This document shows, piece by piece, positions 18,409-52,880 of a stretch of 64,000 nt of DNA (its first letter is position 1; each line of letters opens with the position of its first letter). Location: NCBI RefSeq assembly GCF_055900595.2, contig NZ_CM148325.1. One strand, given 5' to 3'. The position numbers and the translations under genes are program-made. Under the pieces are notes generated by a model. It ran no database searches. It was not told where the DNA came from and saw only the letters and a list, made by a program, of their open reading frames with translations.

Positions 18409-19229
18409 AGATGAATAAATCCGTCGTAGACATGTACCGCCGGCCCCGTCATATATAAGGGGTGACCCGGACCTTTCCAGGCGATATCAAGACGACCGCC
18501 GGGGAGTTCCACACGTACTTCTTCGGCCAGCAAACCTTGCTGAATCCCTACCGCCACCGCCGCACACGCGCCGCTGCCGCAGGCCTGGGTTTCTCCTGCC
18601 CCACGCTCATAAACGCGTAAACGAATATGCTCGCGCTTAACCACTTGCATAAAACCGATATTAGCGCGCTCCGGAAAACGTTCGTGGCTTTCCAGAACAG
18701 GACCAAGCGTTTCTACCGCCGCAGTATCGACATCATCAACCTGAATCACGCAGTGCGGATTTCCCATCGACACCACGCCGCATAAGATTGTCTGCTCGGC
18801 GGCGCGCATAATATAGGTCTTTTCCGCTTTGTTAGCGCGAAATGGCACGGCAGAAGGTTCGAAGTTGGGTTCGCCCATATTGACGCGCACCAGATCGTCA
18901 TCGGTGACGGTCAGAACCATCCGCCCGTTGGCAGTGCTGACGCGGATATCGCGCTTATTGGTCAGCCCTTTCAGGCGCACAAAGCGGGCAAAGCAGCGCG
19001 CGCCGTTGCCGCACTGCGTCACTTCACTGCCATCAGCATTGAAAATGCGATAGTGAAAATCCAGTTCCGGATCATACGGTGGCTCAACCACCAGCAGTTG
19101 GTCAAACCCTATCCCCAGGTGCCGATCCGCCAGGCGACGAATCAGTTCTGGTGAAAAAAAGACATTCTGCGTTACCGCGTCGACGACCATAAAATCGTTG
19201 CCAAGGCCATGCATTTTCGAGAACTGCAT
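18405..19229 (-). CDS. dapF: Diaminopimelate epimerase DapF
   Basis: [33 protein letters not shown]... with the active-site region around [12 protein letters not shown]; started at the second Met (274 aa). Confidence 0.95.
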
Positions 19230-19265
19230 CATTTACTCCAATCACGCGGGTACAGAAACTGACTT

Positions 19266-19469
19266 TTAGTAATTCACCTGGGATGGGCCATCGCCAGTGG
19301 CGCGGTCGTTTTTATCCGGCACCGTGGATTGCGTTTGCGTCTCTACCGGTTTGGTCGGTGGCGGTGCGTTTTTATCTGCAGGCGGGAAATAGAGCGGACC
19401 TTTCAGACCGCAGCCCGTCAGGCTGAAGAGAGTAAGTAATACAGTGAGTGCCTTAAACACGTTTTTCAT
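19266..19469 (-). CDS. yifL: Small lipoprotein YifL
   Basis: 67-aa ORF MKNVFKALTVLLTLFSLTGCGLKGPLYFPP... with an LTGC lipobox, directly upstream of dapF. Confidence 0.85.
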   Translation of the reverse strand: MKNVFKALTVLLTLFSLTGCGLKGPLYFPPADKNAPPPTKPVETQTQSTVPDKNDRATGDGPSQVNY

Positions 19470-19557
19470 TATGGATTGCCTGTAAAGTTCATCGCTTTCT
19501 GCTTTCTATCATCGCAGGAGAAGACGTAAAAGCAAGCGTTTAGCGACTCTTTATGAA

Positions 19558-19560
19558 GTC
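19558..19560. repeat. Target-site duplication (GTC), left copy, flanking the IS629-like element
   Basis: GTC immediately abuts the IS terminus at 19561 and is repeated at 20871-20873. Confidence 0.75.
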
Positions 19561-19602
19561 TGAACCGCCCCGGGTTTCCTGGAGAGTGTTTTATCTGTGA
19601 AC

Positions 19603-20493
19603 TCAGGCTGCCAGATCATCGTTTCCGATGGAAGCATAATAAGCTTTTTCTGCTTCTGCCGGAGGAGTATGGCCCAGCCTTCCCAGCAATCGTCGATTGT
19701 TATACCAGTCCACCCACGTTAGTGTGGCCAGTTCCACTTCTGCACGGTTTTTCCAGCTCTTACGGTGTATTACCTCCGCTTTGTAAAGACCATTGATGCT
19801 CTCAGCCATCGCGTTGTCATACGAGTCGCCTGTACTCCCTGTTGATGCCAGTAATCCGGCTTCTTTTAGTCGCTCCGTATAGGCCAGTGACACATACTGA
19901 GAGCCTTTATCGCTGTGATGGATGGTGCCAGACGGACGACGGGCCCACAACGCCTGCTCCAGCGCATCCAGCACGAATGTCGTTTCCATAGACGATGAGA
20001 CCCGCCACCCCACGATGTATCCGGCAAACACATCAATGATAAACGCCACATAGACGAAGCCCTGCCATGTGCTGACGTAAGTAAAATCAGCCACCCACAG
20101 CTGGTCAGGTCGTTCTGCCACGAACTGACGGTTTACGCGGTCGCCTGCGGCAACGGCTTTCCGGCTGATGGTCGTACGGACCTTTTTACCCCGGAGAACA
20201 CCGGCAAGTCCCATAACCGCCATGAGACGTGCCACTGTACATCTGGCCACCCTGATTCCTTCCCGTAACAACTGACGCCAGACTTTACGCACACCGTACA
20301 CCTGATGATTTTCATCGTATACGCGCTGTATCTCTCTCTTCAGCCAGTCGTCGTGCTGCGCACGGGCACTGCGTTTATCCGGATGATGTCGCTGTTGCTG
20401 ACAATGGTAATACGTTGACGGGGCAATATGCAGTTCGCTGCATACCGGTCCGACCCCGTACTGCTCACGCAGCTTATCCAGCAGTGGCATCAT
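19603..20493 (-). CDS. IS629-like transposase OrfB (DDE integrase/catalytic domain)
   Basis: 296-aa ORF ([33 protein letters not shown]...) with an rve-type catalytic core (…[31 protein letters not shown]…[10 protein letters not shown]…[16 protein letters not shown]). In the -1 frame relative to orfA. Confidence 0.9.
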
Positions 20494-20816
20494 TTTTTCC
20501 AGAGGCGGTCGAACTCCGCCTTCGCAAAATAAGCGGAAGCCTGGCGAAGGATATCGTTACTGCGGCGCAGTTCACGATTTTCACGTTCCAGCTCTTTCAG
20601 ACGCTGACGTTCAGCGCTGGTGAGCCCACCATCACCGCCCCCGGTATCCCGCTCATGCTGGCGAACCCAGACACGCAGAGTCTCCGGCGTACAGCCAATC
20701 TTTGGAGCAATGGAACAAATTGCCGCCCACTGTGAGTCATATTCATCCTGACTTTCCAGAACCATACGAATCGCCCGCTGACGGACTTCGGGGGAAAAAC
20801 GAGTATTTTTAGTCAT
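20490..20816 (-). CDS. IS629-like transposase OrfA (HTH and leucine-zipper protein)
   Basis: 108-aa [67 protein letters not shown]...[28 protein letters not shown]. Ends in the A-run CTCTGGAAAAAATGA, where orfB begins in the -1 frame. Confidence 0.9.
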
Positions 20817-20870
20817 CCTGTTTACCTCTTTCTCAGGGAGTTTAGTCTCCAGGATTTCCGGGGCGGTTCA

Positions 20871-20873
20871 GTC
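20871..20873. repeat. Target-site duplication (GTC), right copy
   Basis: Direct repeat of 19558-19560, immediately outside the IS terminus at 20870. Confidence 0.75.
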
Positions 20874-20970
20874 TGAAAAATGAGGAATTGCTGCGAGTAT
20901 AACGCTTACACGTGGGGATTTATGTTTTGCTGGTAGTTTCGTGATCGGCACCTCGCGCCAGGATGGCTTT

Positions 20971-22449
20971 ATGCACTATCGCAATGTGGTTTGTTTGTTG
21001 TCTTGTTCGTTATTCTTATCCCCGGCATGGGGATGTCGGCTTTCCGCGCCTGAACATAATATTTACCAGAAACAGGGAAAAGGCGTGGTGTACCTGCGCC
21101 CTTATAAAGAAACAAATCTTTCTCTACCTGACGTGAATTACAAGAGTTTGCGTCGTTTACCTAATTTATTAATAGACGCAACAACACAAGATGAATGGAA
21201 TAAAGAACCACCTCTGACTGATCTAACAACTGACAACCTCTATGAGGGCGCACAAGCCTGGTATCCCCATTACTCCTGGCATAGCGATGGTCGCTATATC
21301 CTCTACGCGGGTGAAGTAGTGCAAAATCCTCACGACGCACCACCCGTCGATATCGCCTCATTCAAGGCATGGGGAGATTTTGCCGCGGATAAACACAGTC
21401 TCTATTTTGAAGGCAAGCGCACCGATAACAATGGCGGGGGAAATAGCTTAGATATCAAAACACTGCATCAGGTGGAATTCCGGCCTCCCTGGGATCCTGA
21501 CTTACTGGGGCTGATATTACGTGACGCTAATTTCTTGTATATCAATGGGCATCGCCTCGCAGATCCCGATAGTTTCCGTGTGCTGGCACAAAAGTCATGG
21601 GATCAGCGAGGAAAGTTTTCTACCGCGTTTAATCCCTGTGTGGCTATGCCATTTGGCCCCTGGGATACCCTGGCTCGTACACGGACCAAAATCCTGATCA
21701 ACGGCGAACAGCTTGATGCCGACCCGGACACCTTTTCCGTCGTGCGCTGGATGCCCGGCTCACTCTTGACCTGGCGTGATAAAAACGGGCTACAGCGTAA
21801 AGTCCTCGACAAGGAAAATCTGGCGTGGGATGAAGATTTAACAAAGCACTGTCTGGATTTTTCTCTGCTGGAAAAGAAAGTGTTCTGGCGTAAAGGGCCT
21901 GCTTGTAAACAGGAAGAATTACCGGGGCTCGATCCTGAACAGTTCCACCCCATCAGTGATGCTGTCGCCCAGTATCAGGATTCGCTTTATACCATCATCG
22001 AAACAGAGTCTGGTGACCGCAAGCTGGAGATCGTAAAACTTGATGATCCCAATCTTATTATCAACAAACGTTTCAACGCCGGGAAACGCCATGGCTATTT
22101 ACTTACGCGTGCCGAAGGGTGGCCAAACCATTCCGGTTTACACGTGTTTGAATCTGACGGACCGCTGATCTTACTGGATAACCACTCTCCGGATGAACGC
22201 GAAGCCCATCTTGATGACCATCCCTTTTTGCGCAGATGGTATGCCCGCGATAACCGCTACGTTTACAGCTTTGATGGCGCGCAGCTCTGGCGATACCGCA
22301 CTGCGGATCCGAAACAAGTTCGCTTAATCTGGAAGGAACAACATTCGGGATATGGCTACGGGGTAAATTACAAAACGGGATATCTGGACGGAAAAATTAC
22401 CGATGACGGCGAATTTATTCCTGCCCCGCGCAATGAGGCGACAAAATGA
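20971..22449 (+). CDS. Secreted protein with DKNYY-like repeats (paralogue 1); function unknown
   Basis: Track ORF 20941..22449 trimmed to the ATG at 20971, with AGGA 7 nt upstream. Hydrophobic signal-like N-terminus MHYRNVVCLLSCSLFLSPAWGC. Recurrent motifs DKHSLYFEGKR, DANFLYINGHRLADPDSF and DNRYVYSFDG. Family assignment is by motif recall, not a database search. The segment looks AT-richer than its flanks by eye. Confidence 0.75.
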   Translation: MHYRNVVCLLSCSLFLSPAWGCRLSAPEHNIYQKQGKGVVYLRPYKETNLSLPDVNYKSLRRLPNLLIDATTQDEWNKEPPLTDLTTDNLYEGAQAWYPHYSWHSDGRYILYAGEVVQNPHDAPPVDIASFKAWGDFAADKHSLYFEGKRTDNNGGGNSLDIKTLHQVEFRPPWDPDLLGLILRDANFLYINGHRLADPDSFRVLAQKSWDQRGKFSTAFNPCVAMPFGPWDTLARTRTKILINGEQLDADPDTFSVVRWMPGSLLTWRDKNGLQRKVLDKENLAWDEDLTKHCLDFSLLEKKVFWRKGPACKQEELPGLDPEQFHPISDAVAQYQDSLYTIIETESGDRKLEIVKLDDPNLIINKRFNAGKRHGYLLTRAEGWPNHSGLHVFESDGPLILLDNHSPDEREAHLDDHPFLRRWYARDNRYVYSFDGAQLWRYRTADPKQVRLIWKEQHSGYGYGVNYKTGYLDGKITDDGEFIPAPRNEATK

Positions 22450-23774
22450 AAGGTCAAATAATCACTGTTGCACTCATCCTGTTGGGGCACATATTTCTGA
22501 CGCCTGCTGTACAGGCCATAGGGTTCGACTATTACAATGATCACGGTGTTATGTCTTACGGTAAAGGTTATGGGGAGGATGAGAAAATCATTGCCCAATT
22601 TCCGAAGATGAACAGAGCCGATTTACGCCTTGTGACAAATATATCCAGGGAGCGGGAGTTGGTGGAAGGCTATATACCCACCGATGAAATAAGCATAAAA
22701 AATGAGGAATACCACTGGGTGACAGACGGCCGCGTTATTCTCTGGCGTGGCAAAATCGTTAGCAATCCACCGGGAACACCCACTGTCGATATTGCCAGCT
22801 TTCAGGCTATGGGCCGCTTCGCGGTCGATAAATATAGCCTCTATTTTGACGGACAGCGCACCGAAAGTAATAGCGGCGCGTCACGTGTTGATCTGGCGAC
22901 ACTAAAAGCTATCGAAGGTAACTCTACCACGCTGGTGGATAGTAAAAATCTCTATTTGTCCGGTCGACGTCAGGGGAGCAGCAGTAATGTTACTGTATTA
23001 GAAAAAAGATGGTGGGGTATTAATCCACGTCTTATGAGTGTAAACAGAAATTTGTATTCCAATGATCTGCTTATCCGCAGTGGGCAGAATATTTATTTAA
23101 ATGGCGTTCACCTTACGGCGAATGCAGACTCATTTGAGATAATTCGCTGGATACCTCATTCACTGCTGGTTTTTCGCGACAATAAGGGTATGCATCGTTA
23201 TCCCTTTGGGCAATTGTCTGGCAAAGCGATACCCGTAGATGATGACGTCTCTTTTGAAGTAGGGGAAAGTCGCGTTCGCTGGCGTAAACAGCTCACGTCC
23301 GACCGTCAGTGGAGCCAGTGGATAGACCTACCAGGTATTGAACCTGAACAATTTCATCTGATTACTGACAATATTGCGCAGTATAAAGATCGGCTGTATG
23401 TAACAAAATTATCGACTTTTGGTGAAGACCAGCTTGAAATAATCCCGCTGGATTTGCCAGACCTGGTCATTGATCACTCATTTAATCGCGGCAAACAGCA
23501 TGCTTACTTTATCCACCAATTACGGTCACGCAAGAGCGTGCAAATTATTCCAGTTAACGGCCCGCTAACTAAAAACGATCGCTTTGCTTATGACGATCGC
23601 AATGTTTATACATGGACCGATACAGAGGTAAGGATTACACCCTCCCCCTGCCCAGCGAAAACATACGTCAGAGAAAAGAATGTCCGTGAAATTCATAATA
23701 GCGACATTATTATTCCGGTGACGGAGGAATCGTGCCGGAACGCAGCAGCAGACGGGCAAACTTTGAAGCCCTGA
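22446..23774 (+). CDS. Secreted protein with DKNYY-like repeats (paralogue 2); function unknown
   Basis: 442-aa ORF whose ATG overlaps the stop of the upstream gene (ATGA at 22446-22449), with GAGG 8 nt upstream. Sec-type signal MKGQIITVALILLGHIFLTPAVQA. Alignable blocks shared with paralogue 1: W.SDGR.IL..G..V.NP...P.VDIASF.A.G.FA.DK.SLYF.G.RT and G..PEQFH.I.D..AQY.D.LY. Confidence 0.75.
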   Translation: MKGQIITVALILLGHIFLTPAVQAIGFDYYNDHGVMSYGKGYGEDEKIIAQFPKMNRADLRLVTNISRERELVEGYIPTDEISIKNEEYHWVTDGRVILWRGKIVSNPPGTPTVDIASFQAMGRFAVDKYSLYFDGQRTESNSGASRVDLATLKAIEGNSTTLVDSKNLYLSGRRQGSSSNVTVLEKRWWGINPRLMSVNRNLYSNDLLIRSGQNIYLNGVHLTANADSFEIIRWIPHSLLVFRDNKGMHRYPFGQLSGKAIPVDDDVSFEVGESRVRWRKQLTSDRQWSQWIDLPGIEPEQFHLITDNIAQYKDRLYVTKLSTFGEDQLEIIPLDLPDLVIDHSFNRGKQHAYFIHQLRSRKSVQIIPVNGPLTKNDRFAYDDRNVYTWTDTEVRITPSPCPAKTYVREKNVREIHNSDIIIPVTEESCRNAAADGQTLKP

Positions 23775-23821
23775 CACCATGCCGCTATACTGCCGCCATC
23801 ACCTAAAAACAGGAAACAACA

Positions 23822-31258: not shown

Positions 31259-31858
31259 ATGTCAAAATTGCGCACGCCGTCCCGCTATCTTTTCCGCTTG
31301 CCATCGCATGAAATTACTCCTTTTCGGGCAACGCTCTTTTTAATCTTGTTGATATGTGCCGCTCTGGCTGGCGTAAGTTGGCTGATTATTTCCTTTGTGC
31401 GTACGGGCAATACATTCATCTTCTGGTTAACACTTTTTATTGGGTATCTGATAGCTGCGGCGAAGCAGGAAAAAATCAAGCTCCTCAAGAAGTACCGAAT
31501 CATGGCAGATAAACGTCGGGTACGCTCCATTTGCCAGTTCGCCCGCGAATTTGACACCTACACCGTAGATACATGGGTGATTCGTGCGGTGTGGGATACC
31601 TTGCAAGGAAACGGCTATATCGATTACCCACTGCCACTGAAAGCCGATGATATACTGGACGATGATCTGGATTTGGTGCGCGACGCAGTCGAGTTAGAAG
31701 AGCTGGTTGAAGATACCGCTGCTCGTTGCGGGCGCGATCTATGCGGAATAGAAGAGAATCCGTTTCTTCCCATCGTCACGGTAGGCTCTCTTGTAAGAGT
31801 TTTAAACGCGCAACCGATGACCCAGGAGCGACGTAACCAGTTCTTTATTCGGTCATAA
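31259..31858 (+). CDS. Hypothetical membrane-anchored protein (two predicted transmembrane helices and an acidic cytoplasmic domain); function unknown
   Basis: 199-codon ORF starting 7 nt after the hemY terminator T-tract, with its stop (TAA, 31856-31858) overlapping the 3' end of GlmZ on the opposite strand. N-terminus TLFLILLICAALAGVSWLIISFV / FIFWLTLFIGYLIAAA; C-terminal acidic stretch DDILDDDLDLVRDAVELEELVED. Ordinary codon usage by eye. No convincing Shine-Dalgarno (only AGG abutting the ATG). I do not recognise the protein. Confidence 0.5.
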   Translation: MSKLRTPSRYLFRLPSHEITPFRATLFLILLICAALAGVSWLIISFVRTGNTFIFWLTLFIGYLIAAAKQEKIKLLKKYRIMADKRRVRSICQFAREFDTYTVDTWVIRAVWDTLQGNGYIDYPLPLKADDILDDDLDLVRDAVELEELVEDTAARCGRDLCGIEENPFLPIVTVGSLVRVLNAQPMTQERRNQFFIRS

Positions 31859-32063
31859 AAAAACGCCTGCTCTTATTACGGAGCAGGCGTTAAAACAGGT
31901 CTGTATGACAACAAGTGGGTGCTTCACTCAACGTTGTGTCCATGGTGTCTGATGAGGCATAAGCGACATCTGTCAGTGGACGATAAGCACCGTAAACGGC
32001 TCTGCGTCATTCCGGAGTTTATGAGGCACTAAGGCGAACATAAGAGATGGAATGAGCATCTAC
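31857..32063 (-). ncRNA. glmZ: Small regulatory RNA GlmZ (activator of glmS translation)
   Basis: Reverse complement of 31857-32063 reads GTAGATGCTCATTCCATCTCTTATGTTCGCC...AACGCCTGCTCCGTAATAAGAGCAGGCGTTTTTTT, matching GlmZ (207 nt) including its 3' terminator hairpin and U-tract. Lies between hemY and aslA as expected. Confidence 0.9.
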
Positions 32064-35699: not shown

Positions 35700-35776
35700 T
35701 GGTCGGCGAGAGAGGATTCGAACCTCCGACCCACTGGTCCCAAACCAGTTGCGCTACCAAGCTGCGCTACTCGCCG
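35700..35776 (-). tRNA. proM: tRNA-Pro
   Basis: Reverse complement is CGGCGAGTAGCGCAGCTTGGTAGCGCAACTGGTTTGGGACCAGTGGGTCGGAGGTTCGAATCCTCTCTCGCCGACCA (77 nt, CCA encoded). Confidence 0.97.
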
Positions 35777-35818
35777 AAATACTGCTTTTTGAATTTTTAG
35801 TTCAATTTTTTAAAGTCG

Positions 35819-35905
35819 TGGTGCGAGGGGGGGGACTTGAACCCCCACGTCCGTAAGGACACTAACACCTGAAGCTAGCGCGTCTACCAATTCCGCCACC
35901 TTCGC
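35819..35905 (-). tRNA. leuT: tRNA-Leu (CAG)
   Basis: Reverse complement is GCGAAGGTGGCGGAATTGGTAGACGCGCTAGCTTCAGGTGTTAGTGTCCTTACGGACGTGGGGGTTCAAGTCCCCCCCCTCGCACCA (87 nt, long variable arm). Confidence 0.97.
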
Positions 35906-35925
35906 ATTGTCACAACTTCTAATAA

Positions 35926-36002
35926 TGGGGTGGCTAATGGGATTCGAACCCACGACAACTGGAATCACAATCCAGGGCTCTACCAACTGAGCTATAGCCA
36001 CC
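35926..36002 (-). tRNA. hisR: tRNA-His (GUG)
   Basis: Reverse complement is GGTGGCTATAGCTCAGTTGGTAGAGCCCTGGATTGTGATTCCAGTTGTCGTGGGTTCGAATCCCATTAGCCACCCCA (77 nt). Confidence 0.97.
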
Positions 36003-36059
36003 ACTACAAATCTTGTTACGCGGTATTACTACCACCGCAGCTCAAGCGCCGGGACTAAA

Positions 36060-36136
<77 letters not shown>

Positions 36137-52420: not shown

Positions 52421-52750
52421 TTACGCCAGGTTAGCGTCGAGGAACTCTTTCAACTGACCTTTAGACAGTGCGCCCACTTTGGTTGCCGCCACTTCACCGT
52501 TTTTGAACAGCAGCAGAGTCGGGATACCACGGATGCCATATTTCGGCGCAGTGCCAGGGTTTTGATCGATGTTCAGTTTTGCAACGGTCAGTTTGCCCTG
52601 ATATTCGTCAGCGATTTCATCCAGAATCGGGGCGATCATTTTGCACGGACCGCACCACTCTGCCCAGAAATCAACGAGGATCGCCCCGTCCGCTTTGAGT
52701 ACATCCGTGTCAAAACTGTCGTCAGTCAGGTGAATAATTTTATCGCTCAT
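52421..52750 (-). CDS. trxA: Thioredoxin 1
   Basis: Track ORF trimmed to the ATG at 52748-52750, giving [50 protein letters not shown]... (109 aa, WCGPC active site). Confidence 0.97.
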
Positions 52751-52880
52751 ATATAACTCCACAGGAATAAGCCTGGCGTGTTGGTTTCGTTGTTGGTGTA
52801 ACATTAACCAACTAAAGGTTGACTTTATTTCACCGGATACGCTTTCGTAAAGCAATAGTAAGCTGATATTCTACCACACT

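What the first reader, a model, noticed from the sequence alone, without database searches (positions are those of the whole stretch)
19558..20873. Complete IS629-like element with GTC target duplication, oriented to read into yifL-dapF
A 1310-bp IS3-family element with imperfect terminal inverted repeats (TGAACCGCCCCGG…) and an intact orfA/orfB pair is flanked by a perfect 3-bp direct repeat (GTC at 19558-19560 and 20871-20873). That indicates a bona fide, probably recent, transposition event rather than a remnant. orfA ends in CTCTGGAAAAAATGA and orfB starts in the -1 frame at the same A-run, which is the arrangement expected for programmed -1 frameshifting to an OrfAB transposase. The transposase genes run toward yifL, whose start codon is about 90 bp from the IS end, so the insertion separates yifL-dapF-yigA-xerC-yigB from whatever lay upstream and could supply read-through or hybrid-promoter transcription. 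The opposite IS end is about 100 bp from the first DKNYY-like gene.
Basis: seen in the sequence. Interest (0 to 1): 0.55.

Follow-up and report, generated by a model that had tools for sequence, protein, structure and literature searches.

The report
Recent IS1203/IS629 insertion upstream of lptM
This is an ordinary, intact copy of the very common E. coli insertion sequence IS1203 (an IS629 isoform) that recently jumped into the gap between lptM(yifL) and a DKNYY gene; nothing about it is new except the site.

Summary
Window 19561-20870 is a complete 1310-bp IS3-family element on the minus strand, flanked by a GTC/GTC duplication. It is 100% identical to copies annotated "IS3-like element IS1203 family" in many E. 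coli genomes, and 95.4% identical to a Shigella IS629 copy. The empty site with a single GTC exists. Seven complete E. coli genomes match the reconstructed site at 100.0% identity over 2 kb. Strain E200086 matches at 100.0% identity across 25 kb apart from the 1313 inserted bases. None of 5,426 complete E. coli genomes has this junction, so the insertion is genuine and recent.

One detail needs correcting. The A6 run at the orfA stop is probably not the programmed frameshift site. An ALIL frameshift pseudoknot (Rfam RF01497, 121.5 bits) begins 5 nt after a U_UUU motif about 30 nt upstream. That U_UUY motif is conserved in all nine relatives examined; the A-run is found only in IS629/IS1203.

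The orientation toward lptM-dapF-yigA-xerC-yigB and the distances (91 nt to the lptM ATG, 100 nt to the DKNYY ATG) are correct. Any effect on expression is untested, because no consensus promoter or terminator was found. Already known; low interest.

The parts
19558..19560 (.). Target-site duplication, copy 1 (GTC)
   Evidence: Sequence. The empty site has a single GTC in E200086 and six other genomes, and in K-12.
19561..20870 (-). Complete IS1203 (IS629 isoform), 1310 bp, IS3 family
   Evidence: 100% identical over 1310 bp to copies annotated 'IS3-like element IS1203 family transposase'. 99.9% identical to an O111:H8 copy and 95.4% to the S. flexneri pCP301 IS629.
19561..19585 (-). Right terminal inverted repeat (IRR, downstream of orfB)
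   Evidence: 13/13 terminal bases and 22/25 match the other end.
19603..20493 (-). orfB (catalytic DDE domain). The reading frame is open upstream to 20556.
   Evidence: NCBIfam transpos_IS3, 316 bits, profile positions 93-369 of 369. D136, D195 and E231 are present, with 35 residues between the second D and E. Frame extent.
20419..20535 (-). ALIL (apical loop-internal loop) frameshift-stimulating pseudoknot
   Evidence: Rfam RF01497, 121.5 bits (gathering score 50), E=1.8e-32, full length 1-117. 95.4% of cells paired across 7 relatives. The kissing pair 23-87 changed on both sides, C-G to U-A.
20526..20529 (-). U_UUU slippery tetramer in the orfA frame: the probable -1 frameshift site
   Evidence: It lies 5 nt 5' of ALIL stem-loop 1. 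U_UUY sits at the same position in all 9 relatives, as a full U_UUU_UUC heptamer in two of them and as the only Z_ZZN motif in the overlap in two others. The resulting fusion protein is the one named 'IS3-like element IS1203 family transposase'.
20493..20498 (-).
   Evidence: It lies between ALIL stem-loops 1 and 2 and is absent from the relatives. A fusion made at this site also occurs in NCBI protein sets, on 158 contigs.
20490..20816 (-). orfA (DNA-binding N-terminal part of the transposase)
   Evidence: NCBIfam transpos_IS3, profile positions 1-86. The exact protein is in a 5002-member cluster named 'transposase'.
20846..20870 (-). Left terminal inverted repeat (IRL, upstream of orfA)
20871..20873 (.). 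Target-site duplication, copy 2 (GTC)
19266..19469 (-). Neighbour: lptM (yifL), first gene of lptM-dapF-yigA-xerC-yigB; its ATG is 91 nt from the IS
   Evidence: NCBIfam SS_mature_LptM, 44.5 bits against a cutoff of 27.7. Annotation of E200086. Operon as listed in PMC11376589.
20971..22449 (+). Neighbour: first of two DKNYY-family genes, divergent from lptM; its ATG is 100 nt from the IS
   Evidence: PGAP names the ortholog 'DKNYY family protein' in genomes 99.6-99.9% identical over the 2-kb empty-site query, and 'hypothetical protein' in E200086.

Best explanation
Window 19561-20870 is an intact, probably active copy of IS1203, the E. coli isoform of IS629 (IS3 family, IS51/IS407-like ALIL group). 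It transposed recently into the 188-bp divergent intergenic region between lptM(yifL) and the first DKNYY gene, duplicating the target GTC. This was presumably by the copy-out-paste-in route known for the family. Its transposase OrfAB (404 aa) is made by programmed -1 ribosomal frameshifting. The most likely slip site is the U_UUU tetramer at 20529..20526. It would be stimulated by the ALIL pseudoknot that starts 5 nt downstream, in which the stem-loop 1 apical loop GUUCGA pairs with the stem-loop 2 internal loop UCGGAC. Without the shift, only the 108-aa OrfA is made. Shown here: identity, completeness, target duplication, the empty site, recency, and presence and conservation of the RNA element. 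Inferred: activity, the transposition pathway, the exact slip site, and any effect on neighbouring genes.
For: Identity: 100% over 1310 bp to IS1203-annotated copies. 3042 of 5426 complete E. coli genomes carry a copy covering at least 80% of the element. Completeness: inverted repeats; orfA plus orfB cover positions 1-86 and 93-369 of the 369-position IS3 transposase profile; the DDE residues are intact. True insertion: the reconstructed empty site (1000 + 1000 bp with one GTC) matches seven complete genomes at 100.0% identity as a single ungapped piece. E200086 differs at 2 of 10,000 positions around the site. It matches a 25-kb query at 100.0% identity across a span exactly 1313 bp shorter. 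K-12 also has a single GTC at the site. Recency: the junction is absent from all 5,426 complete genomes. A 3-4 bp duplication is the published behaviour of IS629 (PMC3271280). Frameshift: ALIL scores 121.5 bits. U_UUY is conserved 5 nt upstream of stem-loop 1 in nine elements with OrfB identity down to about 50%. There is a compensatory change in the kissing helix. The U-run fusion is the NCBI 'IS1203 family transposase', seen on 394 contigs. The review PMC5009743 places the ALIL structure 3' of the shift site in IS3411.
Against: I could not read the primary paper on the IS3411 frameshift signal (Mazauric et al. 2008), so the slip site rests on comparison and geometry. It does not rest on a cited experiment. 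A fusion at the A-run is also present in NCBI protein sets, on 158 contigs. A_AAA followed by a stop codon is in principle shift-prone. Activity of this particular copy is inferred only from its intactness and its identity to other copies.
Confidence: 0.93

Rival explanations
1. The -1 frameshift happens at the A6 run (G_AAA_AAA followed by UGA) at 20498..20493, and not at the upstream U_UUU.
For: A_AAA in the orfA frame lies inside the orfA/orfB overlap, directly before the stop. The corresponding 404-aa fusion exists in NCBI sets on 158 contigs. Lysine A-runs are the commonest IS3-family slip motifs (PMC4066793).
Against: The A-run lies 3' of ALIL stem-loop 1 and 34 nt 5' of stem-loop 2. A ribosome positioned there would already have melted stem-loop 1, and no structure sits 4-10 nt downstream. 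The A-run is absent from IS51 and six other ALIL-bearing relatives, while U_UUY is present in all of them. The base before the two AAA codons is G, so this is not a full heptamer.
Confidence: 0.17
2. The insertion has a functional consequence. It cuts lptM-dapF-yigA-xerC-yigB and/or the divergent DKNYY genes off from their native promoter. It would then replace that drive with read-through from the transposase transcript or with a hybrid promoter at the IS end.
For: The IS splits a 188-bp divergent intergenic region, 91 nt from the lptM ATG and 100 nt from the DKNYY ATG. The transposase genes share a strand with lptM. No minus-strand terminator-like site lies between the orfB stop and lptM. 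A -10-like TATACT on the lptM strand (20901..20896) would be displaced by the IS.
Against: No sigma-70 consensus promoter was found in 19200-21100 on either strand. A weak candidate, TTGCTT-16 nt-TGc-GATGAT (19535..19508), remains inside the retained 91 nt and could be the native promoter (sequence). No outward -35 is evident at the IS end. I could not find transcription-start data.
Confidence: 0.3
3. The element at this site is an assembly artefact (a repeat placed wrongly), or it was inherited by recombination rather than by de novo transposition in this lineage.
For: IS1203 is multicopy in many strains (median 4 places per genome). Repeats of that kind are a classic source of misassembly.
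Against: Both junctions are exact to the base, with a clean 3-bp duplication of a sequence that is single in the empty site. That is not expected from misjoining. No other genome carries the occupied allele that could have been imported.
Confidence: 0.03

Closest known systems
IS1203 (E. coli O111:H-; the 'sub-type I IS629' of O157:H7)
   Same: 1310 bp. 100% nucleotide identity to many copies that PGAP names 'IS1203 family', and 99.9% to O157:H7 and O111:H8 copies. Same ORF layout and ALIL element.
   Different: Nothing except the insertion site, which is not present in any of 5,426 complete E. coli genomes.
IS629 of Shigella (S. sonnei / S. flexneri pCP301)
   Same: Same length, ends, gene organisation, ALIL element and both candidate slip motifs.
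   Different: 95.4% nucleotide identity (53 mismatches, 2 gaps). This fits the roughly 4% sub-type divergence reported in PMC3271280.
IS3411 (Tn3411 citrate transposon): the element in which the ALIL pseudoknot was defined
   Same: It is treated as an IS629 isoform in PMC3271280. The window matches the full ALIL model.
   Different: It was not aligned directly, because no IS3411 reference sequence was available in the tools.
IS51 (Pseudomonas syringae) and related ALIL-bearing IS3-family elements
   Same: OrfB is 50-67% identical. ALIL scores 86-120 bits in five of the relatives (the two Streptomyces elements score 33.6-39.4, below the gathering score of 50). U_UUY lies at the same position 5 nt before stem-loop 1.
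   Different: No A6 run at the orfA stop. The kissing helix uses GCUCGA/UCGAGC instead of GUUCGA/UCGGAC.

Membership tests
IS3 family insertion sequence | Two consecutive, partly overlapping ORFs in phases 0 and -1 (orfA, orfB) | tested here: met
   orfA 20816..20490; orfB frame open from 20556 to 19603, in the -1 phase; 67-nt overlap.
IS3 family insertion sequence | Transposase matches the IS3 profile and has a DD(35)E catalytic core | tested here: met
   NCBIfam NF033516: orfB 316 bits (cutoff 160), positions 93-369; orfA positions 1-86. D136, D195 and E231 of OrfB, with 35 residues between D195 and E231.
IS3 family insertion sequence | Imperfect terminal inverted repeats beginning 5'-TG | tested here: met
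   TGAACCGCCCCGG at both ends; 22/25 identical.
IS3 family insertion sequence | Short (3-4 bp) target-site duplication | tested here: met
   GTC on both sides, and a single GTC in empty sites. IS629 is reported to duplicate 3-4 bp (PMC3271280).
IS3 family insertion sequence | OrfAB fusion made by programmed -1 ribosomal frameshifting | not testable with these tools
   The signals are present: a slippery U_UUU plus the ALIL pseudoknot. Protein production was not observed.
IS3 family insertion sequence | Copy-out-paste-in transposition through a circular intermediate | not testable with these tools
   Taken from family knowledge (bioRxiv 10.1101/2023.06.07.543989).
IS629/IS1203 isoform group | At least 95% nucleotide identity over the full 1310 bp to named copies | tested here: met
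   100% to PGAP 'IS1203 family' copies. 99.9% to the O111:H8 copy and 95.4% to the pCP301 IS629. Not compared with the ISfinder reference entries themselves.
ALIL pseudoknot (Rfam RF01497) | Full-length match above the gathering score, with stem-loop 1, stem-loop 2 and loop-loop complementarity | tested here: met
   121.5 bits against 50, model positions 1-117. All 6 kissing pairs form in the window sequence. Across 7 sequences, 97.6% of cells in that helix pair, with one compensatory pair.

The most novel reading that the evidence does not exclude
The insertion is not neutral. By splitting the divergent lptM/DKNYY promoter region, it would rewire expression of the lptM-dapF-yigA-xerC-yigB operon (LPS-translocon maturation, peptidoglycan precursor synthesis, chromosome dimer resolution) or of the DKNYY pair, and it would have been selected in this lineage. 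A lesser novelty would be that IS629/IS1203 uses two alternative slip sites (U_UUU and A_AAA-stop), giving two OrfAB isoforms that differ in 11 of the 13 residues encoded between the two sites.
Probability: 0.12. Interest if true: 0.3.

Novelty: already known. Interest (0 to 1): 0.08.

Why it matters
It matters little beyond strain typing. The insertion is a lineage-specific marker that separates this genome from near-identical relatives such as E200086. It also shows that IS1203 has been mobile recently in this background. Two modest points are useful. First, the same DNA is annotated with two different OrfAB fusion proteins in public databases. The comparative evidence here favours the U-run fusion, the one current PGAP names "IS1203 family transposase". 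Second, the IS sits in a promoter-bearing intergenic region of an operon that includes xerC and dapF, so a transcript check would be cheap if the strain is under study.

Tried and rejected
- I tried to read the primary ALIL/IS3411 paper (Mazauric et al. 2008) by DOI and by PubMed id; it is not held. The supplements of PMC4066793 do not mention IS3411, IS629 or IS1203.
- I looked for the K-12 lptM transcription start in the Cappable-seq supplements (PMC4782308) by coordinate prefix and found nothing. Literature searches for a yifL/dapF promoter returned only operon listings.
- The consensus promoter scan found no sites in 19200-21100. My relaxed scan gave only weak 8/12 matches far from lptM. 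I therefore make no claim for a hybrid or outward promoter.
- I searched for the occupied junction in 5,426 complete E. coli genomes. The only hits covering at least 80% of the query were two O111:H8 strains. These turned out to carry an independent IS1203 insertion in a DUF3304 pseudogene, about 650 bp from lptM, and not this event.
- I considered whether the window holds other copies of the IS that could have mediated a rearrangement. Only these two ends are present in the 64 kb.
- I did not scan genome contigs or metagenome contigs for the junction. The cost was not justified for an ordinary IS.

Full report
**Observation**

The 13-mer TGAACCGCCCCGG occurs at 19561-19573 on the plus strand, and its exact reverse complement ends at 20870. 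These are the only two occurrences in the 64-kb window, against 0.14 expected by chance. The ends match at 13/13 terminal bases and 22/25 over the first 25. The element between them is 1310 bp. GTC lies directly outside each end (19558-19560 and 20871-20873).

On the minus strand, orfA runs 20816..20490 (108 aa). orfB runs 20493..19603 (296 aa from its first ATG) and is in the -1 phase. orfA ends CTC TGG AAA AAA TGA, and the first orfB ATG overlaps that stop. The lptM (yifL) start codon at 19469 is 91 nt from the IS end. The first DKNYY gene starts at ATG 20971, 100 nt from the other end. That start is the one PGAP uses in strain E200086.

**What it is**

A megablast of the 1310 bp against 5,426 complete E. 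coli genomes finds 100% identical full-length copies in many strains. All are annotated "IS3-like element IS1203 family transposase", with an "AL1L pseudoknot" feature. In total, 3042 genomes carry a copy covering at least 80% of the element, with a median of 4 places per genome that has any match. The window copy is 99.9% identical to an O111:H8 copy and 95.4% identical to the IS629 copy on S. flexneri pCP301. This fits the published division of IS629 into sub-types about 4% apart, with sub-type I equal to IS1203 (PMC3271280).

OrfA and OrfB together cover positions 1-86 and 93-369 of the 369-position NCBIfam IS3 transposase profile, and OrfB scores 316 bits against a cutoff of 160. The catalytic residues D136, D195 and E231 are present, with 35 residues between the last two. 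The element is therefore complete and intact.

**Is it a real, recent transposition?**

I joined 1000 bp of left flank ending in GTC to the 1000 bp that follow the second GTC, and searched with that reconstructed empty site.

- Seven complete E. coli genomes match it at 100.0% identity over all 2000 bp, as a single ungapped piece.
- In strain E200086 (human stool, Mali), 10,000 bp around the site differ from the reconstructed window at only 2 positions, and the junction reads ...TTTATGAAGTCTGAAAAATG... with one GTC.
- A 25-kb query spanning the IS matches E200086 at 100.0% identity in two pieces, over a span exactly 1313 bp shorter than the query. That is the IS plus one GTC.
- K-12 MG1655 also has a single GTC at this position.
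- A 300-bp probe across the left junction is covered at 80% or more in only two of the 5,426 genomes. Both are O111:H8 strains with a different, independent IS1203 insertion in a DUF3304 pseudogene.

The occupied allele therefore appears in no complete genome of the collection, and its flanks are essentially identical to empty-site relatives. This is a de novo and recent event. The 3-bp duplication agrees with the 3-4 bp reported for IS629.

**How it works: the frameshift**

Rfam finds a full-length ALIL pseudoknot (RF01497) at 20535..20419 on the minus strand, scoring 121.5 bits against a gathering score of 50, E=1.8e-32. This is the frameshift stimulator defined in IS3411 and reported in at least 27 other IS elements. 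It lies 3' of the shift site, and the apical loop of stem-loop 1 pairs with an internal loop of stem-loop 2 (PMC5009743).

In the window, stem-loop 1 (GGCGG-AGUUCGA-CCGCC) occupies 20520..20504. The A-run (20498..20493) lies after stem-loop 1, in the linker to stem-loop 2. Five nucleotides before stem-loop 1 sits UAU UUU G in the orfA frame, which is a U_UUU slippery tetramer at 20529..20526. The orfB frame is already open from 20556, so both motifs fall inside the 67-nt overlap.

To choose between the two sites, I fetched eight relatives with OrfB identity from 96% down to about 50%. They were Shigella IS629, P. syringae IS51, and elements from Janthinobacterium, Burkholderia, Roseomonas, Acinetobacter and two Streptomyces.

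- All eight have ALIL. Six score 86-120 bits and the two Streptomyces elements score 34-39 bits.
- In every one, a U_UUY tetramer in the orfA frame sits at the same model position.
- In Burkholderia and Acinetobacter it is a full U_UUU_UUC heptamer.
- In Roseomonas and Janthinobacterium it is the only Z_ZZN motif in the whole orfA/orfB overlap.
- A_AAA occurs only in IS629/IS1203.

Counting the ALIL pairs on seven sequences gives 95.4% of cells paired, against 32-44% when the partners are slid. The loop-loop helix has a compensatory change: pair 23-87 is C-G in five relatives and U-A in IS629/IS1203.

An exact look-up shows that both conceivable 404-aa fusions exist in NCBI protein sets. The U-run fusion (...[20 protein letters not shown]...) is the "MULTISPECIES: IS3-like element IS1203 family transposase", seen on 394 contigs. 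The A-run fusion (...[14 protein letters not shown]...) is a singleton cluster seen on 158 contigs.

I conclude, at roughly 80% confidence, that the programmed shift is at U_UUU and that the A-run is at most a minor second site. I could not read the primary experimental paper, so this rests on geometry and comparison.

**Context and possible effect**

The surrounding 50 kb is ordinary E. coli core genome (recQ, uvrD, xerC, dapF, lptM, cyaY, cyaA, hemCDXY and others), with no other mobile element. The IS splits the 188-bp divergent region between lptM and the first DKNYY gene. Its transposase genes share a strand with lptM-dapF-yigA-xerC-yigB, which PMC11376589 lists as one operon.

No terminator-like site lies on that strand between the orfB stop and lptM, so read-through is conceivable. 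However, the consensus scan finds no sigma-70 promoter anywhere in 19200-21100. By eye, two candidates exist on the lptM strand:

- A weak TTGCTT-16 nt-TGc-GATGAT (19535..19508), which remains within the retained 91 nt.
- A -10-like TATACT (20901..20896), which would be displaced by the IS.

I could not find transcription-start data for lptM. The expression effect therefore stays an open, testable possibility, not a finding.

**Comparison and verdict**

Every defining feature of an IS3-family element that sequence can test is met. The element is identical to known IS1203 copies. Only the insertion site is new, and that is routine for an IS present in more than half of complete E. coli genomes. 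Novelty: already known. Interest: low.

Noticed in passing
window 20874-23780 compared with K-12 (L003): K-12 MG1655 lacks about 2.57 kb between lptM and cyaY. Only the first ~250 bp after the insertion point (the 5' end of DKNYY gene 1) and the last ~100 bp of DKNYY gene 2 remain, joined directly. The K-12 intergenic region is therefore a deletion remnant of the two-gene DKNYY cassette.
   Followed up: partly
L002 3712-5021 (E. coli O111:H8 strain 1056-1; also strain 1074-2): An independent IS1203 copy, 1 nt different from the window copy, sits in the same variable lptM-cyaY interval and in the same orientation. It interrupts a DUF3304 pseudogene and is flanked by CTGG on both sides. The interval carries different cargo in different lineages and has been hit by this IS at least twice.
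   Followed up: partly
window 20490-20535 (-): Public protein sets hold two different 404-aa OrfAB fusions derived from identical DNA. One joins at the U-run (394 contigs, named IS1203 family transposase). The other joins at the A-run (158 contigs, named IS3 family transposase). This is an annotation inconsistency.
   Followed up: yes
window 20419-20535 (-); alignment A1: The ALIL loop-loop helix of IS629/IS1203 (GUUCGA with UCGGAC) differs from that of IS51-like relatives (GCUCGA with UCGAGC). One change is compensatory (C-G to U-A) and one is a wobble (U-A to U-G). This supports the tertiary pairing.
   Followed up: yes
window 20971-22449 and 22446-23774 (+): The two tandem DKNYY-family genes overlap by ATGA (22446-22449) and have no NCBIfam hit. 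PGAP labels the orthologs 'DKNYY family protein' in some genomes and 'hypothetical protein' in others. About 1,578 of 5,426 complete genomes carry the first gene next to lptM.
   Followed up: no
window 31857-32063 (-), 35703-36136 (-), 52721-52820 (-): Rfam gathering-level hits elsewhere in the window are GlmZ sRNA, a four-gene tRNA cluster (Pro-Leu-His-Arg in the E200086 annotation) and the trxA 5'-UTR thermometer. All are expected for this E. coli core region.
   Followed up: no
25-kb region around the site in strain RMDEC465 (hit H129): A related genome carries an IS4-family element somewhere in the homologous 25-kb region. I did not determine its position relative to lptM.
   Followed up: no
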